64,000 nt of DNA from a virus, in the IMG/VR virus record IMGVR_UViG_3300045988_134109, positions 1 through 64,000 of that record; one strand, given 5' to 3'. The notes beneath the pieces are model-generated. The model did not search any database, was not told the origin of the DNA, and was given only the letters and a program-made list of their open reading frames with translations. Shown here piece by piece: positions 31,488-63,961 of this stretch. A program made the position numbers and the translations under genes. How positions within the stretch are numbered: position 1 is the stretch's first letter; every line of letters begins with the position of its first letter.

Positions 31488-32678
31488 ATGAGATTAGTTG
31501 AAAGGCATATAGTTAAAGACAACCGGTTTGAGGATATTTGCTTCAAATCCGGCTTGTTATATAATTATGTTCTTTACAACATTCGTCAAGGAATCTTTTC
31601 AGGTAACTATTTAAAGGAATTTGATTTATCAGACAAACTTTGCAAAGAAAACCAATTCGATTTCAGGAATTTACCTAATCATGTATCCCAACAGGTGATT
31701 AAACAGGTATTTAAAAACATAAAATCCTGGATAAAACTCAAGAAGGATTTTGAAAAGAATCCTTCTAAATACGGAAATCATAGACCTCACCTTCCATCAT
31801 ACAAACAAGGTAAGAAACAAAACATGGTTGTTTTCACCAACTGCAATTGTAGGGTAAAGGGTGATAATTGTATTTATTTTGTTAAAGATATAATCAAACC
31901 TATCAAAACAAATGTAAAGAAAGACGAACTAAAACAAGTTAGAATAATCCCTCAAGCTACATGTTATGTAGTAGAGGTAGTTTATGAAAGAAAGGAAACT
32001 GATCTTGGTTTAAACAAAGACAATTTTCTTTCGATTGATTTAGGATTGAATAATTTATGTTCATGTATTAGTAATGTAGAAACTAATTCTTTCATTATAA
32101 ACGGACGGGTTATGAAATCAGTAAATCAGTGGTACAATAAGAAGAAAGCTAAGTTGATGTCTTTTGTTGGTAATAAGGGAACTTCAAATAGAATAAGAAA
32201 AATTACTTTGTTTAGAAATTGTTGGATAGAAGACAAATTGCATAAAATCAGTAGATACATTGTAGACTTTTGTAAATCTAACAATATAGGAACAATCATC
32301 ATTGGATTAAACAAAGAATGGAAAAACGAGATAAATATCGGTAAAAGGAATAACCAACATTTTGTTTCTATTCCTCATTCTAAATTGATCGATAAGATTG
32401 TTTACAAAGCAAATCTTTTAGGGATAGAGGTAATTACTCATGAGGAATCTTACACATCAAAGATTGACCATCTTGCTTTTGAACCTCTAAAGAAACAAGA
32501 ATCCTATTTAGGGAAAAGAAAGAAACGTGGATTATTCCAAAGTTCCGTTGGAAAGCTAATTAATGCTGATATTAATGGAGCTATAGGAATAGCAAGAAAA
32601 GTAGTCGGTGATTCTTTCATTGGAAAGATAATCGATAGTGGATTTGTGTTTAATCCGGTTAGAATAAATATTTTGTGA
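31488..32678 (+). CDS. tnpB: full-length TnpB (IS200/IS605 OrfB-type RNA-guided nuclease homolog, 396 aa); RuvC-I/II/III residues present, zinc-finger cysteines absent
   Basis: LSIDLGLNN (RuvC-I D), ITHEESYTSKIDH (RuvC-II E), INADINGAIGIARK (RuvC-III D, NADxNAAxNIA pattern); the segment between RuvC-II and RuvC-III (SKIDHLAFEP...RGLFQSSVGKL) has no CxxC pairs. Confidence 0.75.
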   Translation: MRLVERHIVKDNRFEDICFKSGLLYNYVLYNIRQGIFSGNYLKEFDLSDKLCKENQFDFRNLPNHVSQQVIKQVFKNIKSWIKLKKDFEKNPSKYGNHRPHLPSYKQGKKQNMVVFTNCNCRVKGDNCIYFVKDIIKPIKTNVKKDELKQVRIIPQATCYVVEVVYERKETDLGLNKDNFLSIDLGLNNLCSCISNVETNSFIINGRVMKSVNQWYNKKKAKLMSFVGNKGTSNRIRKITLFRNCWIEDKLHKISRYIVDFCKSNNIGTIIIGLNKEWKNEINIGKRNNQHFVSIPHSKLIDKIVYKANLLGIEVITHEESYTSKIDHLAFEPLKKQESYLGKRKKRGLFQSSVGKLINADINGAIGIARKVVGDSFIGKIIDSGFVFNPVRINIL

Positions 32679-33432: not shown

Positions 33433-33911
33433 ATTTAAAACTCGTATGTCCTAAGTGTGGTGCCAAGCACAATCCCAACTCTACACATTCAATGAATGCC
33501 TCGGATTTCATAGAAGGGGACATTAGGACCATTATGGAAGAACGTGGGTGGTGCTTTCAGTGCGCCTGCTGGCAGAATATATACAACGTACACAAAGACA
33601 ATCCAGGATGGGTTAGAATCGATGGCGTAAGCTGGATTATCAAACCTATGGCAGCGATCGTACCAGGTGGATGGAATGCTCTTGGATGCGGAGGGAGAAA
33701 GATGTATATTAACATCGAAGGAAAGGGTATTGTTGTATCTAATAATACTTGGTGTCAGGGCTATGTTCCAAAAGTCTTTAAGGAACTGATGCCTGATAAT
33801 GCTACGTGGGCTACGAAAGAGGAATACGATAAAGCTCCTACAGTAGGATACGTTATAGAAGGTGTTGGTTTGATTTTCACAGATAGGACAGGTCATGAAG
33901 TTAATGTTTAG
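33429..33911 (+). CDS. hypothetical Cys-rich protein (160 aa)
   Basis: strong SD ACAAGGAGGAAG then ATG overlapping the upstream stop; CPKCG...CFQCAC. Confidence 0.6.
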   Translation: MNLKLVCPKCGAKHNPNSTHSMNASDFIEGDIRTIMEERGWCFQCACWQNIYNVHKDNPGWVRIDGVSWIIKPMAAIVPGGWNALGCGGRKMYINIEGKGIVVSNNTWCQGYVPKVFKELMPDNATWATKEEYDKAPTVGYVIEGVGLIFTDRTGHEVNV

Positions 33912-34159
33912 GAATCTATTCCATACTCCTCTTAGAATAGTTGAAAGGAAATTAACTAATGGGGAAGTGGAATATTGATGCCAATATCAAAACATTTTTG
34001 GGAAATGGAAAAACAGGATAAAATACGATATGTTTGGCATGTGGTGTTATGCTGTTTTTTATTCATTCGAAGATGCGTATGAATTTAATTATGGTAAGAA
34101 CAAAGAAGAAAAGGTAAAGGTAGTGGATTCTTGTTACAAGAAAAGATGGTAACTACAAT

Positions 34160-34196
34160 AATCCCCGGCCATACAATAGGTGTACGGTTGGGGATT
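34160..34196. terminator. imperfect hairpin (AATCCCC...GGGGATT) in the convergent strand-switch region; candidate bidirectional terminator
   Basis: 7-bp GC-rich stem flanked by A-rich (upstream) and T-rich (downstream) sequence between the last plus-strand gene and the first minus-strand gene. Confidence 0.35.
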
Positions 34197-34232
34197 ATTG
34201 TAATATATGATTAATAACCGTCTTATCTTTTA

Positions 34233-34682
34233 TTATAATTCTACATAGGTGTCAATAGGAACAAAGCTGCCAATTGTACTTATCTTATATATTGAATGAA
34301 TAAGGTGAGTACTTGGACTTAATTTCAGTTGAGGTACTTGATTGGATCCTTCTGTAATAAAGAAATAATAAAAAACGTCTCCAATCGTAAACTGTAACAT
34401 AATATCACCTGTTACCGATCCTTCATTAAAGTAAGCCTGGATATATTGTCCAGAATTTGATATCGTACAATTTATAGGATTACCGCCCATCGTACATACC
34501 TTGCTATTATTAATTTCATCTAAAACATAGGAAGCCGCCATAGTTGCTCCATTAGATCGGTATCTACAACCAAGAATAGGTACAGGATTTCGCCATGTGG
34601 TTGTAGGGGCCGAAATCGAACAAGCAAAAACAGGGATCTTGCCGCCAGCAACTGTATTAATATTTTCAAATCTTCTTCTCAT
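34233..34682 (-). CDS. MRRRF-family small protein 1 (149 aa)
   Basis: ATG start; N-terminal MRRRFENINTVAGG shared with two paralogs. Confidence 0.6.
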   Translation of the reverse strand: MRRRFENINTVAGGKIPVFACSISAPTTTWRNPVPILGCRYRSNGATMAASYVLDEINNSKVCTMGGNPINCTISNSGQYIQAYFNEGSVTGDIMLQFTIGDVFYYFFITEGSNQVPQLKLSPSTHLIHSIYKISTIGSFVPIDTYVEL

Positions 34683-34686
34683 AATT

Positions 34687-34914
34687 TTATAAAATTAATT
34701 CAGTAAAAGGACGGACATAATGTGAACTACCCCTTGAACCTGTATCCAAATGATCTCCTTGGATGTTTATATCATAATACCACGAATAGGAAAATTTTTC
34801 ATTTCGAGTGGATGTCCACATTCTATTACTCATTATCGTACCTCCTACCATTAAAAGGCATTCGTTTATTTCATTAGCATACAATGATATCAAAAAAAAA
34901 CTCTCCGGCGCCAC
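34687..34914 (-). CDS. ORF that would be fused to MRRRF-2 by a 1-nt slip in the T9 tract (+1 frame; track start is GTG)
   Basis: no ATG start; begins inside the 3' end of MRRRF-2, immediately at the T9 run (top-strand A9 at 34892-34900). Confidence 0.3.
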   Translation of the reverse strand: MAPESFFLISLYANEINECLLMVGGTIMSNRMWTSTRNEKFSYSWYYDINIQGDHLDTGSRGSSHYVRPFTELIL

Positions 34915-41500: not shown

Positions 41501-41964
41501 AGATACTGACCGGCGTCTATTCCAGGTCCTTCCAGCACGGAAATGCTTGACGGAACCATAGCATCCACCAACATAATATTATCACCCAGATCTTGGCTGT
41601 AGAATCCAAAGCCCGATTCTTGAATCCCATAAGGTGCATCTGATTTTGACACAAGAACAGGGTTACTCATCTTAGACGCCTTATCCAGCACCCTTTCTCT
41701 ATAGGATTCCGGAATAAGGCCGATGTTGGATTTTACCTTATTATAAGCCTGTTTATTAACAGGTACATTCCTTCTCCAGTCACCAAAAGCCTTTAAGAAC
41801 TTATTAGAAAATACGGTTTTAAAAACAGTAGTAGCCCGTTCCCTATTCTCCATAAGAGGAATAGATGCTATTTTATCAAACAACATAGACCTGTCCCCTG
41901 ATCTGGTAGAGACAGAAACAACTTTCTTTTTATTATCTCTTTTAATAATACACGTTGATGTCAT
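35518..41964 (-). CDS. giant virion-associated protein (2148 aa), function unknown
   Basis: uninterrupted 6.4-kb ORF with ATG start and TAG stop; largely alpha-helical/coiled-coil composition; no recognisable catalytic motifs. Confidence 0.8.
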   Translation of the reverse strand: MTSTCIIKRDNKKKVVSVSTRSGDRSMLFDKIASIPLMENRERATTVFKTVFSNKFLKAFGDWRRNVPVNKQAYNKVKSNIGLIPESYRERVLDKASKMSNPVLVSKSDAPYGIQESGFGFYSQDLGDNIMLVDAMVPSSISVLEGPGIDAGQYLQDAISSDFTPVSMVQDKDANYMVIKDGLKIFSPEELPEADPNPVGVTYQTGEPRLFFMNDRSQLFEDYGEALRSGGNDIRIGFLSGTVQESTVDGVADITYKAGKYVLNNPKSFIPVMTASASTSLSTKGGIINYLIKKGLLSGSKIFDSETRSYYLTGEGHTGQIRLFNSALSYTELRNHFGSDVSMNDQGMITISSLDNSKVTMRLATGGTERVSKEQIKNDLKSGRYNELDAKYDHFDALVVSFILEDNDLYADTKAKIVSDYSRQERDQRNSIVEILKTLGVSVIGMTDYIEKYQTKYGHEPSAKALADIANNVIAVGEDATLSDLVEETAHFLVEAYRDQNAVEAVLQDVEGTEEWNQYAGQYYNTYGKVYEGAELDNAVRREILGKILAREMQTGTAQAPVEPTSFLGRVRQLLSGIVSWLKSALSTQRQDLNNVIKSIRDLAITDIDKGFDTSLLKDNDFTLYSLSSMNKNKFLESKIRALRKTLRDLRQISSDRAVTTSMTLAQLKTIEDKINKVETEIDKNEMAAAMNSMISTAEAQVRYLSNVVNTILHGDTKDGKLHFNTNDRKNVDIINNQVLPIMNDLRGYIRNRSTEFDEREKQDYTNRINTVIADINGIQSDIKSVQDLDESTLLDKLMNELHVPADKVKRVKEFFDKVQHDVSWISRWFGILEHSSSPFNNALGAMIAKDNYNAMVNAQPAISDFLAYAKKHGFNKSEFEKLLQKVDGKTSNYLRSALDMAKYDRNKKLAQMRAFATAMNIEISEEEINDVVDNNRNYVFKREVVDKDGNTVTENAKFKPSSDRVNTDIFTIEQEKIYTEQMEKWDAENSELEFSESYATRMESIYKKAEEELGHPVSQTTKEYLNALSRQKRILRQPFIDSGGNFDEVAYYKSSNYEEEGLLRKQRKEAASEYIYVGTRRVEKTGDQLKMAKEIQAINEVWRKESNNVTNAVSESFLQKLRTIQIESGGEAALKTLMLGGHLSFNDRFWNDIESEQSARTESNNKASYLKMAQDIISSTTSDRDATDVDSIVKDIEKNKAIIKEIIGNNRDVADIGEINEATFTSSERDAFRAASEAIETDYAILIDYAKMVGLEDIDKYLTKSSKAENEVNQSYLNALADSKEVEWKFVQRHTTAKKAKRIQALRDKLFKAADNRYLFTVSETNYLSEKLGISKELDGRDFRNAVNAKMASLFLNNTREEGIEADIKAGIEEANAIVNEFARSQVFSYYKRMAPTGYAAMIDKIGRGEIDVAQMVKDVQNGTSTQDYGMDISYLSFDPARAWVAESEAENSGRNPDYVKDHGYGHRMPKKSLYRDESYFNDFGIKYDADGNEVATKNVEQWNMIQKLKEIKRQSLDLYKEQSPNLYAIPQISKQDIERVEGLGISLKSTVRNFVSDLCLDRVDDSLYGKTRQGEVYDPEDRVRSIPKYYIYELENQDDVSHDFGYSYSMLMMQSSLYNEKQKSIELAQGLEQMLLNKQFEGGKKAEATQAYQMFRDFFNDHYYGIRMNTKKLTVNIGGYTVDLTRIMMAVERFMSVMNLALSPFVAATGALTGHINLIMESAVGQYISKDSLRYASAEFSRLAPSCIAETGDIDRKSKLYVIGERMGIFNIRNRMYGAGYNRVARTLMRSPMYAFMEILNYPLDPQVMIATMDNVRYYKGRFYTFQDFKMEKERNKEQSTIKREWNALKDRTLWSMVDVVDGKVVVKPGSGVTVEEVETQMAITRNQVRSLSQICNGSLNEENRTAASRNWIARFMTAHRGWLVLAAQRLWKRRGFNFQTMQEEEGLSITLKNMIAKTFSLASESGMKNIIDAWNENKDNMNEVEKTNLKRLSVYAGTFLIMQAVSMLLAGWRDDDENEESWLTQFGSYVGFRTINEIASQMPFIMELNVVDIINDPFVMGRKLKDLTDLRNYSLDKVTSGTYKGESKLFRQLAKQTFIKQWYNIKTPEDVARAYNWWQQTNNKSMMFFIGATPDSEGDDDVSYK

Positions 41965-45749: not shown

Positions 45750-46280
45750 TTATAAAACCGACTTATACAATGACGGATCCCAAATTCCTTCTATATAAAT
45801 CTCCGGAAAACTCAAACTGCCATCACGAAGAGTGGTGACTTCCAAGCTGGGAATGTTGAAAACAGTACTGGTATCACCAAACTCACCATTCAACTTGATA
45901 GCATTTCCGCTGTTATTAGCCTCATAATAAAAATAACAATAATTTTCATTAATGCTTGGATCATATTCGTACCAATATGTTAGATCTTGTATATGATCTT
46001 CTATGTTACCAATTTTGTTTTCACCTAATATAAAAATACCATTATTGCTATGATTATAAACCATAGATTCATAACCACCATAATTCCAATTACTATTAAA
46101 CATTATGTAACTAACATCAGAATCATGATCTTTTAATACAGGTCCTATATGTATATGAATTTTATTAAACTGACATACATAAGGTCTTTTTCCTCCAAGC
46201 CTTTTTATATCTTCATTGGATAACTTATTATAACATCCTCCCACGAAATTATCCGCAGCATTAAAAAATCTCCTTCTCAT
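45750..46280 (-). CDS. MRRRF-family small protein 3 (176 aa from the ATG at 46280)
   Basis: SD AAGGAG then ATG 2 nt after the TGA of the 2136-aa gene; N-terminal MRRRFFNAADNFVGG. Confidence 0.6.
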   Translation of the reverse strand: MRRRFFNAADNFVGGCYNKLSNEDIKRLGGKRPYVCQFNKIHIHIGPVLKDHDSDVSYIMFNSNWNYGGYESMVYNHSNNGIFILGENKIGNIEDHIQDLTYWYEYDPSINENYCYFYYEANNSGNAIKLNGEFGDTSTVFNIPSLEVTTLRDGSLSFPEIYIEGIWDPSLYKSVL

Positions 46281-46282
46281 AC

Positions 46283-49200
46283 TCAACACTCCTTATTTAA
46301 CTCATTTATCGAATCCGAATTATCAGAACCTTCTACGAGATTCTTATTCCTATCTATCTCTTCCTGGCTCATGTTACTCATCATATTTTGTATTTTTCTA
46401 CCAGATTGAGATAAAGAACGGATGAATGCGCTGGAACTTATCTTAACTCCAAGATCCGGTTTTGCCCTAAACGCTTCACCGGTACTGATATTATACAAAT
46501 CATACACACCTGAGTTCATATAGAATTTATATATCCAGTTTCCACCAGCTTTTTTGTACCCTAATTTGGTTAACTCGACTACACTCATACCAAATTTAAT
46601 GCCATTACGACCCATTATCTTCTCTGGTATAGGTTCTACCTTAGCCGGAACAGATGTATATGCTTCATCGCCGCCGTACAGGAAATAAGGAGATATTACC
46701 CTTGATATGTGAGTAAGCGGTTCTTCGGATATACGAGGTTCGTCTTTTTCTATTTCTCCTTTTGTAGATCCAGGTAATTCGACATTTCCTTCAACTTCGA
46801 CATTTGTTCTGGATTGTCCTTTGCCTTCTCCATCTCCCTTTTTATCGCCATCTTCCTCAGTGCGTACTGCACCGCCTTCTGCACTTCCTTCTTTTCCATC
46901 ATTTAAAATATTATCTGATTCTGACTCTATAGACTCCACAACAGCATCATACTCTGGTATGCCGCTAAGGAAATCTGCTACGTTATTCAAAAACTCTATT
47001 TTTTCCTCGTTTGTCATATCAAGGCTTTCCACGGGCCTCCATATGGCAGGCAAGTTGTTTGATTTTATTGCAGTAGAAACATCTTCTACAGTTTTATTAT
47101 CCACCGTAGGCAAAACTTTAGAAACCAAACTATTGATATCAGATTCCATTTTTTCTACTTCCTCTTTTGTGCCATATTCTTTTAGGGTATCCATGCCATT
47201 GACTCTAAGAGAATAATTCAAAGCCTTGCTTGGAACAAAATTAATATATTTCAAAAAGTTTTTCAACTCTGATATAATTTGTTCGTCAGATCTTGGCCCA
47301 ACATAATCAACCACCACCTGATCTGTTTGAGAACGAAGCCAAGAAACGTATTCTTCTAAGGTCTTACCACCTTTACTGGAAGGAGTGGATATTTTATCAC
47401 CTACTGTTCCTTTAGGTTCTAATCCCATTTCTTCCTTAAGGCTTTTAGGATTACCTCTCTCACGAAGAAACCTCAAATCACCTCCTACAATCTTCCTTGC
47501 TATAAAATCAAAAATATTAGCATAAGACGGCAATCCTTCTTTTTCTATATGAGATTCTATTTCGTTTAACATAAGAGAGAAGTTTTTCCTGGAGGTACGC
47601 TTCTTGCCAGGTAAAGACTGCGTAGCTTGTGCCGCAGGAGCCGGCTGAGCTAATGGCGCCGGCTGAGTCTCCCGGGCAGCCCCTTCCTCTGGCATTTCCT
47701 CTTCATAAACTTCCACATCTTCTACCTTAGAAGTAACGGTCTTACCCTCATCAGAGAAAGGAAGATCATCCTCTATAAGCGATTTAGGTCTGGAAGATGA
47801 TTTGCCAAACTGAATCCTGATCTTAGGAGCGACAAACATCTCACCTTCGAAATCTATTCCAGATTCTACTTCAGACGTCACAATGTCTTTCACATTCCTG
47901 CTTTCATCTTCCACCCACTTAACAACATCAGGAACCGTAGATAATTTTTCTATAGCCTCACGAGCTTTTCTAAGCCCTGAAATAGGATTCAAATACGATA
48001 CTTGATACGAAGCCGGATCAAGACCTAACTTGGTTAGATACGCATTAAGATCTTGTATGTCATCTTGACCCATCTGTAGCAATTCAGAATCACCAGATTC
48101 AAGCAGCATATCTATAAAAGACATCCATTTCTGCCCTTCCTCTGATTCTACAGAACGTAGGCTAACTGGGAAAAGATAATTAAGACCGTTTTTACCTTTG
48201 ATGACGACTACCGGAACTCTTACATTTTTGTAATTATTCCCCTTGTCATTTAATATAGAATAAGCAAATGGGAAGCCTGTGTATTTAGATCCGTTCTTAA
48301 GCACGACTTTGCCATTTAATACATATCCAACATCAGATACTTTTTCAGCACCTTTTTCGGTAATAGGGAGATTTTCTATCTGGCCATATCCTTGACCGTT
48401 CACCTTCATGTTAAACACCGGTCTTCCGGGAAGGGTCTGGGCAACAACATGCGTGCCGACGCCGATGGTAGCCGACCGGCCGGCGTCCTTCTTCCACTTG
48501 TTAAAAGCCGTTCTTCTTATTTTACTTATACCATCTATGCCTCCTGTATCAGCTTTTACAACAGAAACGAATCTGTTCCCACTCATGACCTTGATAACCA
48601 TATTGGACACCAGTTTATTCTCAGCAGATTCTATTCTTTTTTTATCGCCGGACTGAACAGCATCATTGTATTCGGCAAAAAGAGACTGATTATAAGTATC
48701 ATTTACATCTATTTCGAGATTAACCTTATCTCCTTTTTTCAAAGAAGATAATGCTTCCTGATCTATTTTATCTACCTCATTCTCTCCGAATCCGACACCC
48801 GTTCTGTACGGAACCAATTCATCTGAATCAAGACGCTTATAAACCAAAGAATAGGAATTACCCACGTCCTGAATAGACACGTCTGTGTAACGGTTAAGAA
48901 CACGAGCCGATTCTTTGTCTATAGACCATCTCGCATGATAAGGCAGTTCAATTATAGTAGCCGTTTCTCCACCTATGTTAAGAGAATACCTTTTAGTACC
49001 ATTAGCGTTCGTTTCAGAGCTTATTTGAATAGGAACCAATGATTTTATAGAAGATATAAATTTATCGGCTCTAAGACCCGCAATTTCATACCTTTCGTTG
49101 CCATCGTTGGATATTCTTCTAACCATCAACGTCTCTGGATTTTGGGCACTATCTATGTTAGCTCCAGGCGTATTATCGGATTCATCTAACTCATTTACAA

Positions 49201-58628: not shown

Positions 58629-59648
58629 TCAATCATGTACGGCAGACAAACCGCCCGAATCAGGGTCGTACTTAAGACCGCATGCCCGGCGATAGTTCTT
58701 AAGCGCTCTCTTGTACAAAAACAGCACTGTCTTGGAAACTATTTTCTTCATAGATTTGGTTAAAACCTCTTCTGTTGAAACAGACATCAGACAGCTATTC
58801 AAAAACGACCTGACATTGGAACCGAACAAGATCTTCACCATTTTTCTAAACGTTCTAAAAAGATATGATGCAGAAAGAGACTTTAACCCATTGCGAACCA
58901 GTCTCTTATTCAAATACGAAACAGCCTTTTCAGATAGACAGAGCCTATTCTTTCCTTCGCTATCTACCTCTGATGAAAACCACGAATATAAAGTGGTAGG
59001 ATGTTTCTTAAGGTGATTGATGAAGGAAGTCATTATCCCTTCTTTTAAAGCCCTTTTGTGGGCTACGCATGCAGCAATCTTCTCTTCTCTTTTTAAAGAG
59101 CTGTCAAGGCATCTAAACACCGTCCTATCGTCTCCGATGAAATACTGAGGACGTTCTTCCTTGAACTTAGCCCGATAAGCGGCATATCCTTCCTTACGAA
59201 GCATATCTATCTGAGACCGGATATAGAACCTTACACACTTTTCTTCAGCCTCTTGCACGCTTTTAAGATAAGGAACTGACTTTCTCCCATATCGAAGATA
59301 ATCGTAAACCATAGCCTCAATAAAGTCATTGTACGGAAAGAATCTTCCAAATCCAAAGTTCCAAACTATGAAACATCGCACTCTATCTTTCCAGTAATCA
59401 GATATGAGAAAATTACTACAATATCTCAACTTCCTGTTTTTCTGATAGAAATGATGAGTATGTTTGTCATAAAATAGATTAAAATATCTCAAATTGCCCA
59501 AACACTGACCGGCTGGACGGCGTACTACATTGTACCCTAAGTTGCTGAAGCTATTGTATATAACTTCTATCGGAGAGACCTGCTCTTTCTTGAAGAGCTT
59601 GTCGTGTAACTTGTGAGGATTCATTATTTCAGTTATTTTTGTCTCCAT
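58629..59648 (-). CDS. orphan basic/aromatic-rich protein (339 aa) inserted between giant structural genes
   Basis: ATG start preceded by TATATTTG and directly downstream (on the minus strand) of the hairpin at 59708-59748; no recognisable domain. Confidence 0.6.
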   Translation of the reverse strand: METKITEIMNPHKLHDKLFKKEQVSPIEVIYNSFSNLGYNVVRRPAGQCLGNLRYFNLFYDKHTHHFYQKNRKLRYCSNFLISDYWKDRVRCFIVWNFGFGRFFPYNDFIEAMVYDYLRYGRKSVPYLKSVQEAEEKCVRFYIRSQIDMLRKEGYAAYRAKFKEERPQYFIGDDRTVFRCLDSSLKREEKIAACVAHKRALKEGIMTSFINHLKKHPTTLYSWFSSEVDSEGKNRLCLSEKAVSYLNKRLVRNGLKSLSASYLFRTFRKMVKILFGSNVRSFLNSCLMSVSTEEVLTKSMKKIVSKTVLFLYKRALKNYRRACGLKYDPDSGGLSAVHD

Positions 59649-59707
59649 ATTGTTTTTGTTTTTTAGTGCAAATATATGATTTTATATAAAAAGAAGAAAA
59701 TGCACTG

Positions 59708-59748
59708 CCTTGTATCCGGTTTGAGAGAAATAGGATACAAGGTTTTTT
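59708..59748 (+). terminator. strong hairpin (CCTTGTATCC / GGATACAAGG, 15-nt loop) followed by T6 on the plus strand and by a U-rich stretch on the minus strand
   Basis: 10-bp perfect stem; plus strand TTTTTT immediately 3'; the minus strand reads CAGUGCAUUUUCUUCUUUUU 3' of the stem. Confidence 0.6.
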
Positions 59749-59749
59749 A

Positions 59750-60400
59750 TTTTATGACGGTTTGGATAAGAGACAGGAAAACGACTCTGAACGTAACCGA
59801 CTGACCGTCAGTGGTGGGACAACAAATCTTGAATTAAAACTACGCCTATGAATAGTCTCCGTTTTCCTTAATATTAAGACCATTTTCAATGATCTTACTC
59901 ATTATATTATTTATATTATTTTATATACTTTACCATTTATTCATATAATTGTTTGCAGTGAATGAACTTAACGACTGAAGGGAGTTAAGTGAGTGAACGG
60001 ATTGACAAATTACTTTTTCCGTCTATTGTATTGTTTGCCTAATTGTGTTAAAAGATTGAGTATCGTGACCGAAGGGAACGATGCGAAAGAACATATAATA
60101 TTTAAAAACGACTGAACCTATCGACTGAAGGGAGATAGGTGATGGAGTGACGTTAATAATTATATTAGATAGCCAGTGGAGAATTAGGCAGGCTGGTAGG
60201 CGAGACGAGCGTCCATGCCCGTCAGGACAGTGGAAGTACGTAGGTCTGTTCTGTTAAACCAAGACGATGATAGTTCCATCCTTCACGAAATTGCACAAAA
60301 AAGCCGGATTATCTTGATATCGTTCTTCAACCTTTGGTATCCGCATAACGAGTCTCAAATCCGGCTTCGCTTTATTAATATGAGAAATAAAATAATTGTT
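59750..60400. other. 650-bp non-coding, locally GC-rich region with three stem-loops sharing the loop GAC(T/C)GAAGGGA; candidate structured RNA or protein-binding array
   Basis: hairpins at 59967-59989 (CTTAAC/GTTAAG), 60062-60082 (ATCGT/ACGAT) and 60117-60139 (CCTATC/GATAGG) have different stems but the same 11-nt loop; additional partial CGACTGA copies at 59782, 59798 and 60109. Confidence 0.5.
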
Positions 60401-63400
60401 CTAATTATCAGTGACGCCTTTAATGCGAAGCTGTATATTGGGAAGCACGGCATTAATCAAAGCCATTTTCTTCTCCTCTTCGCTTTCTTTTTCATGCTGT
60501 CTATACATCATATTATAATCACTGTCATCACCATCCTTTTTCCCGTCTAACGTCAGTAAATGATTTATGATGTCTTTACCATACGTTTCAGTCCATGTAC
60601 GGAATCTCTCTTCCTCGGACTGTCTCTCCTGGGACGGAGCTTCCGGGTTAGGGAGGGCGGCTGCCACTTCTACCTCTGGAAGTGTTACCGATGCTGCTAT
60701 TTCTCCATCATCTCCGAATCCCATTTGACCATACGAAGATACGGAATTTTCTTCAATATCCAAACCAAGATTTTTAGCAACTTCCATAGCATAGTTATAA
60801 CGGTCATCGTTTCTTATAACACTCTTATGAGGACGTCCTGCTCCTTGGTTCCAAGCTACTACTGCATCCTTAAGGTTATCGGCGTTCATAAAATCCTGCC
60901 GGCTGTAGTTGTAATATCCTGGTCCTTCTTTTCCTTTTCTTGTGTATAAGAAATTAGAATATCCGGTTTTCCCTTCGTATTCGTCAGCCAAAAACTCAAG
61001 TTGGTCTTTGAATGTGGGTGTAGAATGACCTTTCTTTTTGGCGTGCTTGAATAACTTATCCATGCGCTCATTATGCCATTGTTGTATGCCGTATGATGTT
61101 CTGTTGTCTCCATATATGTCATCTTTAAGACCGGATTCAGCCATGAGATTGCCTATGATGGCTAGCGCCTGTATCTTAGACATGCCGCGCTTATTAGTAA
61201 AGTAATCATATGCTTCACGCTGCTTGCCAATTACGCCACCTTCTTCAGCAAACACAATGCTTTTACTCGGTTTATCGTTTTCATAGAAATACATGAATTT
61301 CCTACTTGGAATCCTGTGTGATGCATCTTTCGGATCTCCGTATTCTTTTTTATGATCAATAAAACGAAAACCAGCTTTGTATGGAGTAAGCTTCCCTCCG
61401 TTTCTTTTCTTTTCTTTTTTAGGATTAGCAATCTTATCCCCTACATAGTAGGCCCCTAATCCCACCGAGGCGTGATCTGTTATCCATTTGGCAGCCTTTT
61501 TATAGTCTGATATGGATTCAAAATATTCTTTCATCTCATTATCATACCCATAATCCTTCAAGTAATTTCTGGCTGCATATTCTAACATTTCAGGCGTCAC
61601 TTCTTGAGCATCATCGGTCAAACCAAAATAATTTTTAATCTGAGTTCCTCTGGCCGCCATTTCCGTAAAATGATCCTCTTTGAAATAATCTTTTACTTCA
61701 TCATCATCTATCTTATTCAAATCAAATCCGTTTTTATCTGCGCCTGAATCTGGATAATGAATTTTGTGTTCCACTTCATGACTTTTCACAAAATTCTCTA
61801 CATCCTTGTTAGATATATTGGGGTTTCTTTCGAGAAATAAATCAATGAACTTATCAACGTTTTTAGACCTGATTATATTTCCATTTAATACCCCATATCC
61901 AGATATTTCATCTATTATCTCCCTTATCTCATCATCAGAGTATTCATCTCCTAAAAAATACTTTGCATCCCTGAAAACTTTCGGATCATCCCAATCATAT
62001 ATGTTGGTATCAAGCATATCCGGATCTGGCTCCCCATTTTTCATCCTTAACCTCTCCCCAGTAAGCCTTTCATAGGCTCCAGAGAAAAGTCGCTTTTTAT
62101 GATTTTCCCATGCCTCGCCTATAGGAGATGCTGGTTTAGCATATTCAGGCAACGATCCTAAAAGTTCTTTATCTCTTTGAGATAGTTTTTTAGTAGCTCT
62201 TTTCGCTTGCATTGCTTTTTTCGATATACCTCCTACAAAAGGAATAAGACCCATAGCGGCCATAACCATTCCAAGCGCATCTCTATCTATGAAAGAATCA
62301 TACGCATCCTTGACGTCCATTATATCACCTACTACAGGAATGCCTCCAGCTACAATTTCGTTGATATCCACGCCATCAACAGGGATCGTGCCATAATTAG
62401 CATTTTCATTTATTCCGCTTGACCCTACTGATGTATTATCCTTAGATGCAATGTACCTATATTTAGATCCGTTTTCTTCATCTACGGCTCCTCCTTCTTT
62501 TTTTATATTGGTATTGTATCTCTTTCCATTCCATGTAAATTCCTTAAGACCTCTTTTCCTGGCTTCTTTAAAGGCTTCGCCTCTTGTAGTGGAAATCGGG
62601 TCTTGTAATTCAAGATCGTTTTTTATGTCAAGAATAGCATCAATAATACTATTATTCTTTTTATCAGCATCATCTGAATTATTAACATTATCCGTAACAT
62701 AAGATTGGCTTATCAAGTTTGATACGCTCTTTCTGTTTTTATAAGTCCCTTCTTTATCTGATGGAGCTTCAAAAGCATATACAAGTGGATACGAATAATC
62801 CGTATCTGGATCTTCTGACATAAATTCGTTTACTGCATGAATAGCTTTTTTGTATTTAGTATCTTTTATACTATACTTCCCAGCATCTTGAACATGATCA
62901 TAAAATCTGTCTATCATATAGTTGATATATCCACGCTTATCGCTCTTAAATCTCTCTTTATCTCTTTCAAACTCTTTTGGCGGATATCTTTTGTAATATT
63001 CTTGAAAAAGTCCCCTAAATTTTCCATCCTCAGATACAGCGTAGGGGTTTCCACCAGATTCTTCAATAATATTTCCAAGTACGGCTTCTATCTGGCGTTG
63101 ATTAAAACCTTTATCATATAAAGCATCATAGATCATATTCATCCCTTCTACGTCCATAGTACGATGCTTACCCTTACCCACACGCTTCATATTTTCATAT
63201 TTGGATTTGAATAAATCCCAATCTATTTCCGGCTTAGAAGAATCCCCTCCTTGTTTTTTGGATCTTATCTCCATCCTTTTATCCAAATCATTCTTTGAAT
63301 CAATAATGGATCTAAACAGGATCTTGTTTGGATCATTCTCTTCGTATGGGATTTTATCTTCTACATAATCCCTTATTTCAAAAGGATATCCTATTGTATC

Positions 63401-63961
63401 AAGAGTCTTAGTAACAACCCCAACACCAAAAGGTTGATCGCTTCTATAAAAATCGTACTTATCTTTCACAACCATCCTACCTCTATCATCACGGTACATG
63501 GTAAAACTTGATAAGCCTGATAAATCATTTAAATCTCCGTAAGCATCCGGTATAAAATTATATTCGTTAAATACCTGATGTTCCCCGGTTCTGGCTTTTT
63601 TTAAGAGATCTATACCCTCTTCTACCATTCCAAGTTTCCTGCTCGTTACATCCCTTAACTCCTCCAAATCAGATACGTCCTTGCCTGCAACTTTTCCATC
63701 AATTATCTTATTATCTAAGGAATCAAGCTCCTTCCCATATTTTTTAGCCATTTTCTCCCACCCACCATTTATCCTGTCAGATATAATGGATTTGATATTA
63801 TCTGGTATTCTAACAATCCCGTTTTCCTCTTTCAGGTTATTTGGTTGGTTTAAGAATCTAAACCAAAGATTCTGACTAAAATCATCTACATTGGCTTTCG
63901 GAACATCTTGACCAAAAAATTCCATTATTTTGGTTTTCAATCCTCTTTCGTTAGCATACAC
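60401..63961 (-). CDS. giant virion-associated peptidoglycan hydrolase with two SLT/GH23-like lysozyme domains (at least 1186 aa; N-terminus may lie beyond the window)
   Basis: two copies of the lytic-transglycosylase signature: VLGNIIEESGGNPYAVSEDGKFRGLFQE and IIGNLMAESGL...YGIQQW; TAG stop. Confidence 0.75.
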   Translation of the reverse strand: MYANERGLKTKIMEFFGQDVPKANVDDFSQNLWFRFLNQPNNLKEENGIVRIPDNIKSIISDRINGGWEKMAKKYGKELDSLDNKIIDGKVAGKDVSDLEELRDVTSRKLGMVEEGIDLLKKARTGEHQVFNEYNFIPDAYGDLNDLSGLSSFTMYRDDRGRMVVKDKYDFYRSDQPFGVGVVTKTLDTIGYPFEIRDYVEDKIPYEENDPNKILFRSIIDSKNDLDKRMEIRSKKQGGDSSKPEIDWDLFKSKYENMKRVGKGKHRTMDVEGMNMIYDALYDKGFNQRQIEAVLGNIIEESGGNPYAVSEDGKFRGLFQEYYKRYPPKEFERDKERFKSDKRGYINYMIDRFYDHVQDAGKYSIKDTKYKKAIHAVNEFMSEDPDTDYSYPLVYAFEAPSDKEGTYKNRKSVSNLISQSYVTDNVNNSDDADKKNNSIIDAILDIKNDLELQDPISTTRGEAFKEARKRGLKEFTWNGKRYNTNIKKEGGAVDEENGSKYRYIASKDNTSVGSSGINENANYGTIPVDGVDINEIVAGGIPVVGDIMDVKDAYDSFIDRDALGMVMAAMGLIPFVGGISKKAMQAKRATKKLSQRDKELLGSLPEYAKPASPIGEAWENHKKRLFSGAYERLTGERLRMKNGEPDPDMLDTNIYDWDDPKVFRDAKYFLGDEYSDDEIREIIDEISGYGVLNGNIIRSKNVDKFIDLFLERNPNISNKDVENFVKSHEVEHKIHYPDSGADKNGFDLNKIDDDEVKDYFKEDHFTEMAARGTQIKNYFGLTDDAQEVTPEMLEYAARNYLKDYGYDNEMKEYFESISDYKKAAKWITDHASVGLGAYYVGDKIANPKKEKKRNGGKLTPYKAGFRFIDHKKEYGDPKDASHRIPSRKFMYFYENDKPSKSIVFAEEGGVIGKQREAYDYFTNKRGMSKIQALAIIGNLMAESGLKDDIYGDNRTSYGIQQWHNERMDKLFKHAKKKGHSTPTFKDQLEFLADEYEGKTGYSNFLYTRKGKEGPGYYNYSRQDFMNADNLKDAVVAWNQGAGRPHKSVIRNDDRYNYAMEVAKNLGLDIEENSVSSYGQMGFGDDGEIAASVTLPEVEVAAALPNPEAPSQERQSEEERFRTWTETYGKDIINHLLTLDGKKDGDDSDYNMMYRQHEKESEEEKKMALINAVLPNIQLRIKGVTDN

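What the first reader, a model, noticed from the sequence alone, without database searches (positions are those of the whole stretch)
59750..60400. 650-bp non-coding island with three stem-loops that keep an identical 11-nt loop while their stems differ completely
The interval between the TAG stop of the 1186+ aa gene and the hairpin/U-run at 59708-59748 is unusually long, and it is locally GC-rich against an AT-rich background. It contains CTTAAC-GACTGAAGGGA-GTTAAG (59967-59989), ATCGT-GACCGAAGGGA-ACGAT (60062-60082) and CCTATC-GACTGAAGGGA-GATAGG (60117-60139). The loop is identical apart from one transition, and the stems are fully compensatory. Extra partial CGACTGA copies and a GC-rich segment (60170-60260: GGCAGGCTGGTAGGCGAGACGAGCGTCCATGCCCGTCAGGACAGTGG) lie nearby. 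This pattern is the signature of a structured RNA with repeated protein- or RNA-binding loops, or of ssDNA hairpin recognition sites (REP-like or HUH-type substrates). On the minus strand it would be a highly structured 3' UTR of the lysozyme-domain virion gene. On the plus strand the loops display SD-like GAAGGGAG. I could not match it to group I/II intron, tmRNA or RNase P signatures by eye.
Basis: seen in the sequence. Interest (0 to 1): 0.75.

Follow-up and report, generated by a model that had tools for sequence, protein, structure and literature searches.

The report
Repeated tandem-GA hairpin RNA in crAss-like phage
The three "stem-loops with an identical loop" are real, but each is only the tip of a conserved 45-base hairpin module, and together they form a previously undescribed, probably RNA-level structured element that travels with one orphan gene in an abundant human-gut phage lineage.

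Summary
GACYGAAGGGA occurs three times in 64 kb against 0.04 expected, each copy flanked by different complementary arms.

The "11-nt loop" is not a loop. It continues the helix as tandem G·A/A·G, two base pairs and a GNA triloop. Each hairpin is the tip of a 45-nt module: GUGA-NN-GA-[7 bp]-GA-NY-GNA-RN-GA-[7 bp]-GA-NN-GAAC. Three tandem-GA steps are invariant and the Watson-Crick pairs covary: 93% of cells are paired, against 36-51% when partners are slid, and 11 of 13 pairs show double changes.

A covariance model finds exactly three modules in the window and in 79 of 80 close relatives. G·U wobbles, G·A pairs, GNRA/GNA caps, GC skew and folding energy all favour the + strand, opposite to the flanking genes.

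The ~650-nt island is conserved in blocks in relatives whose neighbouring 339-aa protein is only 83%, 60% and 42% identical. It always lies upstream of that orphan, basic gene. Island plus gene occurs as a second paralogous cassette in some genomes and is absent from that site in crAssE-Sib.

There is no Rfam, tRNA or coding signal. Best reading: a new structured non-coding RNA with repeated protein-docking hairpins. Function and transcription are unproven.

The parts
59956..60000 (+). Module 1 (HP1): a 45-nt tandem-GA hairpin. Cap GACTGAAGGGA at 59973-59983.
   Evidence: Covariance model R1 scores 65.0 bits, E 3.6e-16. Register and pairs come from alignment A3.
60050..60094 (+). Module 2 (HP2): a 45-nt tandem-GA hairpin. 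Cap GACCGAAGGGA at 60067-60077.
   Evidence: R1 scores 65.5 bits. The stem covaries: GTATCGT/ACGATGC here, ATATCGT/GCGATAT in type B, GATATC/GATAT in type A'.
60106..60150 (+). Module 3 (HP3): a 45-nt tandem-GA hairpin. Cap GACTGAAGGGA at 60123-60133.
   Evidence: R1 scores 62.2 bits. It is a 51-nt paralogue of module 1 (repeat D1, 76% identity). The variants G8->A (giving U-A) and GAC--GAAGGA (one pair removed) both keep the cap helix.
59880..59955 (+). AT-rich spacer with a -10-like hexamer (TATAAT, 59944-59949) 7 nt upstream of the base of module 1. Candidate promoter of the + strand RNA.
   Evidence: The sigma-70-like scan finds TTTATA-18-TATAAT, 10 of 12. A -10-like hexamer sits at the same place before module 1 in types A' (TATACT) and B (CATAAT). 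This is inference only, and there is no exact TAnnTTTG box.
60035..60041 (+). 5' strand of a long-range helix (TTGCCTA). It pairs with 60197-60203, or alternatively GCCTAATT 60037-60044 pairs with AATTAGGC 60182-60189. The helix encloses modules 2 and 3.
   Evidence: The MFE fold and RNAalifold both predict it. Changes on the 5' side are C->U against an invariant 3' strand, and A-T becomes G-C in the alternative register in L204.
60170..60300 (+). G-rich 3' domain with invariant blocks TAGCCA (60170-75), GTAGGCGAG (60196-60204) and CAGGACAG (60223-30), plus a variable hairpin between the last two.
   Evidence: The blocks are invariant across island types A, A' and B. The domain is retained in the module-less variant L050 and duplicated in L197, L215 and L239.
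59797..59822 (+). Conserved hairpin CCGACTGA-CCG-TCAGTGG followed by GGTGGGACAA.
   Evidence: CTGAnCnTCAG(n)GGTGG is conserved in types A, A' and B. Pair 59800/59812 is AT 25, CG 37, TG 21, GT 3, other 22 among 108 close relatives.
59708..59755 (+). Terminator-like hairpin (CCTTGTATCC / GGATACAAGG, cap UUU-GAGA-(G)AAA) followed by a U-run on the + strand. It lies between the island and the promoter of the 339-aa gene.
   Evidence: It is present with covarying stems and a GNRA cap in A, A', B, L245, L247 and L249. L203 has three G·U pairs on this strand.
58629..59648 (-). 339-aa orphan gene always found next to the island. A Bacteroidota-type -7 box, TATATTTG, lies on the minus strand at 59669-59676.
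   Evidence: Its homologues at 83%, 60%, 42%, 21% and 19% identity all have a 540-1100-nt gene-free gap upstream. The protein has pI 9.75 and 9 Cys. It has no Pfam, PHROG, NCBIfam or PDB sequence match.
60294..60367 (-). Hairpin (AAGCCGGATT…AATCCGGCTT) plus U-run on the minus strand. This is the terminator of the tail-lysozyme gene and the right-hand boundary of the island.
   Evidence: Inverted repeat I22 has 10 of 10 complementary bases. It is followed on the minus strand by TTTTTTG. The stem covaries in L204 (GCCGAGCCAT/ATGGCTCGGC).

Best explanation
**What it is.** The island is a gene, or a pair of genes, for a structured non-coding RNA read from the + strand. That strand is opposite to the flanking virion genes.

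**Architecture.**
- The core is three paralogous 45-nt hairpin modules.
- In each module, Watson-Crick steps alternate with three invariant tandem sheared G·A/A·G steps, capped by a GNA triloop. More distant relatives use a GNRA tetraloop instead.
- A G-rich 3' domain follows. It pairs back to the spacer after module 1.

**Likely function (inferred).** Because the non-canonical steps and the cap are invariant while the helix sequence is free, the modules most likely serve as repeated docking sites for a protein. The RNA would then act as a multivalent scaffold or decoy.

**Likely partner (inferred).** The island is inherited together with one orphan, basic, Cys/His-rich 339-aa protein gene as a ~1.8-kb cassette. 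That protein is the first candidate partner.

**Shown versus inferred.**
- Shown: the structure, its strand, its conservation, its copy-number variation and its linkage to the gene.
- Inferred: that it is transcribed, where the RNA starts and ends, and what binds it.
For: **Structure.**
- In alignment A3 of 20 distinct module sequences, 93.1% of cells are paired, against 36-51% when the 3' partner is slid.
- 11 of 13 pairs show changes on both sides, and 0 of 500 shuffles reach the observed values.
- All GA positions are invariant.
- The cap helix is supported by C3-G9 -> G3-C9 or A3-U9, by U4·G8 -> U4-A8, and by a two-base deletion that removes exactly one pair.

**Specificity.** R1 finds 3 modules in the window at 62-65 bits, with the next hit at 12 bits. 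It finds 237 = 79 x 3 modules in 80 related loci, all at the same place and on the same strand.

**Strand.**
- All three stem substitutions in HP1 give G·U on the + strand.
- 17 G·U cells occur in the module helices.
- The tandem G·A steps and GNRA/GNA caps exist only on the + strand.
- GC skew is positive over 59925-60300, opposite to the flanking genes.
- MFE is -92.6 kcal/mol (z -2.3) on + against -68.8 (z -1.4) on -.
- Alifold energy is -75.6 on + against -49.8 on -.

**Selection.** Sequence blocks and structure are kept between islands whose neighbouring protein is 83%, 60% and 42% identical.

**Not coding.** Only short ORFs are present, and they are broken by indels in relatives.

**Linkage.**
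- The long gap upstream of every homologue of the 339-aa gene persists whatever the upstream gene is: tail lysozyme, DUF6808 or others.
- Types A and B occur in the same contigs.
- The type B cassette is missing from crAssE-Sib.
Against: - There is no expression data. No exact Bacteroidota TAnnTTTG box lies on either strand inside the island, so the promoter is only a sigma-70-like guess.
- The + strand hairpin plus U-run at 59708-59755 lies upstream of the presumed RNA and is unexplained by this model.
- G·T and sheared G·A pairs and C-GNA-G caps are also stable in single-stranded DNA, so RNA versus ssDNA is not settled.
- One relative (L050) lacks all three modules, so they are dispensable at least in the short term.
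- In the most distant relatives the island is either inverted relative to the gene (L247) or lacks recognisable modules (L249).
- The covariation comes largely from paralogues and three or four lineages, not from many independent lineages.
Confidence: 0.5

Rival explanations
1. **Single-stranded DNA element.** The + strand hairpins act as DNA. Candidate roles are hairpin promoters for the virion RNA polymerase (as in phage N4), priming or single-strand-origin signals, or recognition sites for a strand-specific nuclease or recombinase.
For: - C-GNA-G caps and sheared G·A pairs are classic stable DNA mini-hairpin features (established knowledge).
- N4 early promoters are three hairpins with 5-7-bp stems and purine-rich 3-nt loops (established knowledge, recalled rather than tested here).
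- Crassvirales carry a virion RNA polymerase (PMC11054128).
- No host-type promoter box lies in the island.
- Copy number varies.
Against: - By gene orientation and GC skew, the + strand here is the leading-strand template. It is therefore not the strand expected to be exposed during replication (inference).
- A long-range helix spanning ~160 nt and rich in G·U, together with GNRA caps, fits RNA better.
- 20-step irregular helices are much longer than N4-type promoter hairpins.
- No HUH, Rep, TnpA or RAYT gene is adjacent.
- The location is inside the virion-gene block, not at an early region or a strand switch.
Confidence: 0.2
2. **Double-stranded control region of the 339-aa gene.** The repeats would be operator or iteron-like sites bound as duplex DNA by the winged-helix-like protein, for autoregulation or a partition/replication site. 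The hairpin potential would be incidental.
For: - The island always lies upstream of the gene.
- It holds an AT-rich segment plus repeated conserved words with variable copy number.
- The protein is basic and gives weak HTH or winged-helix matches.
- A temperate or plasmid-like lifestyle has been suggested for these phages (PMC11054128).
Against: - Duplex-DNA recognition does not require, and would not maintain, compensatory changes in 11 of 13 stem positions.
- It would also not maintain a strand-asymmetric pattern in which G·U and G·A occur on one strand only.
- The conserved GA words lie on the same strand in both arms. As duplex DNA they are therefore neither palindromic half-sites nor simple direct iterons at helical spacing.
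Confidence: 0.1
3. **Long structured 5' leader or processing region of minus-strand mRNA.** This could be read-through from the lysozyme gene into the 339-aa gene, with the hairpins acting as RNase processing or stability sites.
For: - All flanking genes are on the minus strand, so the region is very probably crossed by some minus-strand transcription.
- On the minus strand the caps read C(UNCG)G (UUCG, UACG, UCCG), a stable tetraloop family, as read directly from the sequences.
Against: - On the minus strand every module would carry three tandem U·C/C·U mismatches, plus A·C at every place where the + strand has G·U.
- The L245 and L247 caps are GNRA only on the + strand equivalent.
- Minus-strand folds are weaker.
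- The lysozyme gene has its own terminator before the island.
- The 339-aa gene has its own promoter box after the island.
Confidence: 0.08
4. **Decaying repeat or mobile-element debris without function.** This could be remnants of a MITE or IS, or a product of tandem duplication.
For: - Copy number varies from 0 to 4.
- An IS605-family TnpB fragment is inserted 150 nt away in two relatives, and a full TnpB gene lies in the window.
- Island plus gene behaves as an insertion/deletion cassette.
Against: - The invariant non-canonical positions and compensatory changes are kept across paralogues and across lineages with 42-83% protein identity.
- 79 of 80 close relatives keep exactly three modules.
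- There are no terminal inverted repeats or target-site duplications at the cassette borders.
- There is no similarity to the TnpB element.
Confidence: 0.07

Closest known systems
Orphan large structured ncRNAs of phages and bacteria found by comparative genomics (for example HEARO before it was recognised as the IscB omega-RNA, GOLLD, ROOL)
   Same: It is a several-hundred-nucleotide, gene-free, strand-specific element with covarying helices and GNRA caps. It is conserved more strongly than its neighbourhood, and was found first by sequence with no known function.
   Different: There is no sequence or structure match to any of the 4227 Rfam families. The architecture is unusual: three repeated hairpins with periodic tandem G·A steps. 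Distribution so far is one lineage of epsilon crAss-like phages.
Protein-sequestering sRNAs with repeated hairpins (CsrB/RsmZ type) and the repeat-array antitoxin RNAs of type III toxin-antitoxin systems (ToxI)
   Same: It has several similar hairpin units in one RNA and a variable unit number. In the ToxI case it also resembles an ncRNA-plus-one-protein cassette, with a terminator between the RNA and the gene.
   Different: The GGA of the cap is paired, not exposed. The units are not exact tandem repeats. The RNA strand is opposite to the gene in types A and B. The protein has no ToxN/AbiEii or CsrA signature. CsrA is not a typical Bacteroidota protein (background knowledge).
Kink-turn / box C/D-type motifs (L7Ae-family binding sites)
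   Same: It has tandem sheared G·A/A·G pairs next to a Watson-Crick stem, and words such as GUGA…UGA and CUGA.
   Different: No 3-nt bulge lies between the canonical stem and the G·A pairs. The G·A steps are embedded in a continuous helix, three per module. No C/D family hit was found.
Phage N4 virion-RNA-polymerase hairpin promoters, and d(GCGAAGC)-type DNA mini-hairpins
   Same: There are three hairpins sharing a C-GNA-G purine-rich cap with differing stems, in a phage group that packages an RNA polymerase.
   Different: The modules are ~20 steps long, not 5-7 bp. They lie in the virion-gene block rather than before early genes. Long-range pairing and G·U content point to RNA. Whether they are used as DNA could not be tested.
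IS200/IS605 or REP/RAYT (HUH) hairpin substrates
   Same: They are strand-specific imperfect hairpins, and IS605-family TnpB genes are present in the same genomes.
   Different: No TnpA or RAYT gene is nearby. The stems differ between copies instead of being conserved. The element is not at the ends of a transposable unit.

Membership tests
Any Rfam 15 family (including Y RNA/YrlA, HEARO and IS605-orfB motifs, group I/II introns, tmRNA, RNase P, 6S, CRISPR repeats) | A covariance-model match at or near the family's gathering score | tested here: not met
   The whole window at gathering thresholds gives 0 hits. Positions 59000-61000 at E<=10 give only a chance CRISPR-DR54 hit at 17.5 bits against a 39-bit cut-off, inside the 339-aa gene. 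Island types A', B, L245 and L247 give nothing in the islands at E<=1.
tRNA / tmRNA | Cloverleaf or tmRNA detected by ARAGORN | tested here: not met
   0 genes were found in the window.
Kink-turn / K-loop (box C/D-like) | Tandem sheared G·A/A·G pairs directly preceded by a 3-nt bulge on the 5' strand next to a canonical stem | tested here: not met
   The G·A/A·G steps are present and invariant. They are flanked by Watson-Crick pairs on both sides with no bulge in the regular modules. Only single-nucleotide bulges occur in the CCGAAUC/GUGAGG variants.
Type III toxin-antitoxin (ToxIN-like) | Exact tandem RNA repeats on the same strand as, and upstream of, a ToxN-family endoribonuclease gene, separated by a terminator | tested here: not met
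   The modules are spaced 94 and 56 nt apart with different stems. The structured strand is opposite to the gene. The terminator-like hairpin works on the opposite strand. The protein matches no Pfam, PHROG or NCBIfam family. PADLOC was not searched.
CsrB/RsmZ-type sponge | Multiple exposed A(N)GGA motifs in hairpin loops, and a CsrA/RsmA partner in the host | tested here: inconclusive
   GGA is present in each cap, but by covariation G8 and G9 are paired and G10 and A11 form the sheared step. The host and its CsrA status could not be tested.
Lambda-type nut/boxB antitermination site | A short (5-bp) stem with a GNRA-like pentaloop in the nascent RNA of the regulated operon, plus boxA | tested here: not met
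   The structure is on the strand opposite to all neighbouring genes. The helices are ~20 steps long.
N4-type hairpin promoter | A DNA hairpin of 5-7 bp with a 3-nt purine loop on the template strand just upstream of an early-gene start, used by the virion RNA polymerase | not testable with these tools
   The cap C-GNA-G resembles it. Position, helix length and usage could not be assessed, and no early genes are adjacent.
IS200/IS605 ends or REP elements (HUH substrates) | Conserved subterminal hairpins at both ends of a unit that encodes or depends on a Y1 HUH transposase (TnpA/RAYT) | tested here: not met
   No TnpA or RAYT was found. The nearby TnpB fragment in L053 is a separate insertion after TTGAT with no similarity to the island. 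The cassette borders have no repeats.
Y RNA (Ro60 partner) | 5'/3' terminal stem with the conserved Ro-binding bulged helix, and in bacteria a tRNA-like domain, encoded beside rsr | tested here: not met
   There is no Rfam Y RNA/YrlA match. The Ro60-related gene of crAssE-Sib lies ~4 kb away beyond the lysozyme gene, next to tRNA genes. The module architecture is different.
Protein-coding gene (small ORFs) | An ORF conserved in frame among relatives | tested here: not met
   The longest ORFs wholly inside the gap are 40-45 aa. Relatives carry 1-nt and 8-nt indels inside them.

The most novel reading that the evidence does not exclude
The island and the 339-aa gene together form a new two-component accessory cassette of crAss-like phages, consisting of a structured RNA plus an orphan nucleic-acid-binding protein. 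It can be gained, lost and duplicated as a unit. The tandem-GA hairpin modules would be the protein's docking sites, so the pair would work as a ribonucleoprotein, for example as an anti-defence decoy, a regulator of the virion-gene block or a selfish element. The logic is comparable to ToxIN, retron or OMEGA "ncRNA + protein" pairs, but the cassette is unrelated to any of them.
Probability: 0.2. Interest if true: 0.8.

Novelty: new member of a known kind. Interest (0 to 1): 0.62.

Why it matters
Epsilon crAss-like phages are abundant in the human gut, and most of their genomes are unannotated. The published analysis of the closest relative, crAssE-Sib, does not mention this region (PMC11054128).

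This is a well-supported structured element with an unusual design: helices in which Watson-Crick steps alternate with fixed tandem G·A steps. It has clear boundaries, natural copy-number variants from 0 to 4 modules, and a fixed orphan gene partner. That gives experimenters three things:
- a defined candidate phage ncRNA, or ssDNA signal;
- a candidate binding protein;
- natural deletion and duplication alleles to test.

If it is an RNA-protein pair, it adds a new kind of accessory module to Crassvirales biology. If it is used as DNA, it may bear on how these phages start transcription or replication.

Tried and rejected
1. **Stop-codon read-through of the lysozyme gene (TAG recoding).** The frame stays open for only 48 more codons, and the window's long ORFs are intact under the standard code. 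Rejected.
2. **SD / small-peptide reading.** The ORFs are short and broken by indels. Rejected.
3. **Promoter word ATTGTTTGC before HP1 and HP2.** It is not enriched elsewhere in the window: 18 matches at up to 1 mismatch against 20 expected. In relatives it is part of the long-range helix.
4. **The same 11-mer in unrelated viral contigs** (giant-virus MAGs, L100, L179, L192 and others). The 11-mer often sits in a short hairpin there, but only model positions 15-31 match, never the whole module. These are treated as unrelated hairpin caps or convergence.
5. **Literature search for the 11-mer.** It returns only plant miR319, a coincidence.
6. **Module pattern scan of 185,579 prokaryotic genomes.** It gave 26 hits against about 17 expected by chance (my estimate). 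None scores with the model.
7. **A second GA-NN-GNA-NN-GA word at window 32977.** It lies inside a coding region without the module context.
9. **Cassette borders.** No target-site duplication or terminal repeats were found.
10. **Link to the TnpB elements in the same genomes.** The L053 TnpB insertion matches only the window's TnpB gene (32431-32665), not the island. Rejected.
11. **Link to the Ro60-related gene.** It is not adjacent, and no Y-RNA signature is present. Rejected.
Full report
**Source and context.** The window is about 97% identical over this region to phage crAssE-Sib (OR575929, 151 kb, human gut), an epsilon crAss-like phage (PMC11054128). The finding lies in a 752-nt gene-free gap. 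On one side is a 339-aa ORF (58629-59648, minus). On the other is the tail-lysozyme gene (60401-63961, minus; Phage_lysozyme2 domain). All large genes from 34.9 kb to the end of the window are on the minus strand.

**Observation.** The three hairpins are there as described. The 11-mer GACYGAAGGGA occurs three times in the window, all on the + strand, against 0.04 expected. ARAGORN finds no tRNA or tmRNA. Rfam gives nothing at gathering thresholds over the whole window, and nothing relevant at E<=10 over 59000-61000. Only ORFs of 45 aa or fewer lie wholly within the gap.

**Close relatives.** A protein-anchored scan and a pattern scan of IMG/VR gave about 150 loci with this region at 93-98% identity, 108 distinct sequences including the window.
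- The hairpins are kept.
- The commonest HP1 cap is GACCGAAGGGA. The window's T is a minority allele.
- The three kinds of stem substitution seen in HP1 all give G·U on the + strand.
- Inside the "loop", HP3 (which has U at position 4) carries G8->A in 11 sequences, making U-A.
- Four sequences have GAC--GAAGGA, which removes Y4 and one G, that is, exactly one pair.
- Structural variants exist. L050 has a clean 289-nt deletion that removes the AT-rich spacer and all three hairpins. L173 has HP3 duplicated. L197 has HP1 and part of the G-rich segment duplicated.

**Distant relatives and paralogues.** Homologues of the 339-aa protein are few: 16 clusters at 90% identity and 22 representatives among 1.84 billion proteins clustered at 50%. 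Their contigs show the following.

| Island type | Protein identity | Position |
|---|---|---|
| A' (L204/L207) | 83% | again after a tail-lysozyme gene |
| B (L199-L203, L206 and others) | ~60% | after a DUF6808 gene |
| L245 | 42% | after a lysozyme gene |
| L247/L248 | 21% | 1.1-kb gap |
| L249 | 19% | 540-nt gap |

(identities.)

In every case a 540-1100-nt gene-free gap lies upstream of the homologue. Type B islands occur in the same contigs as type A islands, for example IMGVR_UViG_3300045988_103017, _099418 and _098998. Some genomes therefore carry two paralogous [island + gene] units. In crAssE-Sib the type B unit (~1.85 kb) is absent from between the signal-peptide/DUF6808 gene and the next structural gene. 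I found no repeats at the borders.

**What the hairpins really are.** Comparing types A, A', B and L245 shows that the 11-mer continues the helix. G1·A11 and A2·G10 form a tandem sheared step, followed by two Watson-Crick pairs and a GNA triloop.
- The two inner pairs change in a compensatory way: GACCGAAGGGA, GAGCGAAGCGA and GAACGTAGTGA.
- The triloop varies at N: GAA, GTA, GGA.
- L245 has GACGTGAGGA: the GA step, one pair and a GNRA tetraloop.
- L247 has GAGCGACAGCGA: the GA step, two pairs and GNRA.

Outward from the 7-bp stem the same logic repeats, giving the module 5'-GUGA NN GA [7 bp] GA NY GNA RN GA [7 bp] GA NN GAAC-3'. I aligned 20 distinct module sequences, drawn from HP1-3 of type A and HP2 of types A' and B, without gaps.
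- All twelve G and A positions of the three G·A steps are invariant or nearly so.
- The 13 Watson-Crick pairs are formed in 93.1% of cells, against 36-51% when the 3' partner is slid by 1-3 columns.
- 11 of 13 pairs show changes on both sides.
- 0 of 500 shuffles reach the observed paired fraction or covariation score.
- Modules with CCGAAUC/GUGAGG arms fit the same register. They carry a fourth G·A step and single-base bulges (my reading), and the model finds them at lower scores of 23-29 bits.

A covariance model of the module (R1) gives these results.
- It finds exactly three copies in the window: 59956-60000, 60050-60094 and 60106-60150, at 62-65 bits. The next hit scores 12 bits.
- It finds 237 = 79 x 3 copies in 80 related 13-kb loci, always at the same place and strand. 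L050 has none.

**The rest of the island.** Blocks outside the modules are also conserved across types.
- The hairpin CTGAnCnTCAG followed by GGTGG(G)AC.
- TAGCCA.
- GGCAGG…GTAGGCGAG.
- CAGGACAG.

RNAalifold on 13 representatives predicts the modules plus a long-range helix. It joins the spacer after module 1 (60035-60041) to the invariant GTAGGCGAG block (60197-60203). Variation is on one side only and is C->U, which keeps pairing through G·U. An alternative register, GCCTAATT/AATTAGGC, shows A-T -> G-C in L204. The G-rich domain has its own tandem duplications in some genomes.

**Strand.** Everything points to the + strand.
- G·U wobbles in the stems.
- Tandem G·A steps and GNRA/GNA caps, which would be U·C/C·U mismatches and unremarkable loops on the other strand.
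- Positive GC skew over 59925-60300, against negative skew in the flanking genes.
- Lower folding energy: -92.6 kcal/mol (z -2.3) against -68.8 (z -1.4) for single sequences, and -75.6 against -49.8 for the alignments.

One point favours the minus strand: the caps would read C(UNCG)G there. I judge this outweighed by the mismatches elsewhere.

**Boundaries.**
- *Right side.* The lysozyme gene has its own hairpin plus U-run on the minus strand (60301-60367, U-run 60294-60300). The stem covaries in L204.
- *Left side.* The 339-aa gene has a Bacteroidota-type -7 box (TATATTTG on the minus strand, 59669-59676) that is conserved in the relatives.
- *Between that promoter and the island.* A GC-rich hairpin with a UUU-GNRA-AAA cap and a U-run sits on the + strand (59708-59755). 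Its stems covary in all six lineages, with three G·U pairs in L203. It looks like a + strand intrinsic terminator. What it terminates is unexplained. It keeps its orientation relative to the gene even in L247, where the G-rich part of the island is inverted.
- *Inside the island.* There is no exact TAnnTTTG box on either strand. A -10-like hexamer (TATAAT, CATAAT or TATACT) lies 7-8 nt before the base of module 1 in types A, B and A'. This is the only hint of a start site.

**Specificity of the element.** The same 11-mer sits in short hairpins in unrelated viral contigs. One giant-virus MAG holds more than 50 dispersed copies of gagcGACCGAAGGGAgctc. Only the cap matches the model there. A strict module pattern found 26 places in 185,579 prokaryotic genomes, about the number I estimate by chance, and none scores with the model. 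Rfam finds nothing in the other island types. The paper describing crAssE-Sib does not mention the region.

**Interpretation.** The structure, its strand and its conservation are shown. I think it most likely (about 0.5) that this is a + strand structured non-coding RNA whose repeated modules are docking sites for a protein. The co-inherited 339-aa protein is the first candidate. Rivals and my estimates are:
- use of the same strand as single-stranded DNA, for hairpin promoters or priming or recombination signals (about 0.2);
- a duplex-DNA control region, which conflicts with the covariation (about 0.1);
- a minus-strand leader, which conflicts with the strand signals (about 0.08);
- functionless repeat debris, which conflicts with conservation (about 0.07).

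**Caveats.**
- There is no expression evidence.
- The covariation rests on paralogues and a handful of lineages.
- The secondary structure outside the modules is only partly resolved.
- The start, the end and the partner of the presumed RNA are inferred.

Noticed in passing
window 31488-32678 (+); L053 4776-5325 and L166 7844-8393: The window carries a full TnpB-like gene (OrfB_IS605 plus Cas12f1-like TNB domains). Two relatives carry a 550-nt truncated copy, 72% identical at the nucleotide level. It is inserted right after TTGAT, inside the loop of the lysozyme-gene terminator (window ~60314), about 150 nt from the island.
   Followed up: partly
window 61245-62490: The tail-lysozyme gene of the window holds 1245 nt that are absent from crAssE-Sib. 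This is an in-frame extra segment that makes the ORF 1186+ aa.
   Followed up: no
L200 5240-7130 compared with L277 3240-3324 (crAssE-Sib 41636-41720): A second, paralogous [island + 348-aa gene] cassette (~1.85 kb) is present in some genomes, between the lysis-module DUF6808 gene and a structural gene. It is absent from crAssE-Sib. No border repeats were seen.
   Followed up: partly
window 59708-59755 (+): A GC-rich hairpin with a UUU-GNRA-AAA cap and a U-run lies on the strand opposite to the 339-aa gene, just upstream of that gene's promoter. It is conserved with covarying stems in all six lineages examined. What it terminates is unexplained.
   Followed up: partly
L094, L146, L147, L171, L194 (IMGVR GVMAG-S-1101165-105): A giant-virus MAG has more than 50 dispersed copies, on both strands, of the short hairpin gagcGACCGAAGGGAgctc. 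It has the same cap as here but is not the same module.
   Followed up: partly
L001 11694-13663 (crAssE-Sib 72756-74725), just beyond the right end of the window: A Ro60-related (TROVE) protein gene lies next to tRNA-Lys and tRNA-Tyr. A phage Y-RNA-like partner might be there. Nothing Y-RNA-like was found inside the window.
   Followed up: no
L239 8566-8779; L215 5386-5501; L237: An 89-nt unit of the G-rich 3' domain of the type B island is tandemly triplicated in L239 and duplicated in L215. L237 has a partial duplication of module 2.
   Followed up: no
L247/L248 2905-4001: The most distant homologue with DNA context (416 aa, 21% identity) has a 1.1-kb upstream gap. There the G-rich, GA-motif strand is the same strand as the gene, so it is inverted relative to the window. 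The terminator-like hairpin keeps its orientation.
   Followed up: partly
window ~33900-34900: Convergent strand switch: + strand genes end at 33911 and minus-strand genes end at 34874. This is a possible replication terminus or module boundary.
   Followed up: no
L277 7355-7930 (crAssE-Sib 45751-46326) and L203 11572-12783: A DGR (VR/TR/IMH plus reverse transcriptase) lies about 4-5 kb downstream of the type B cassette site. No link to the island was seen.
   Followed up: no
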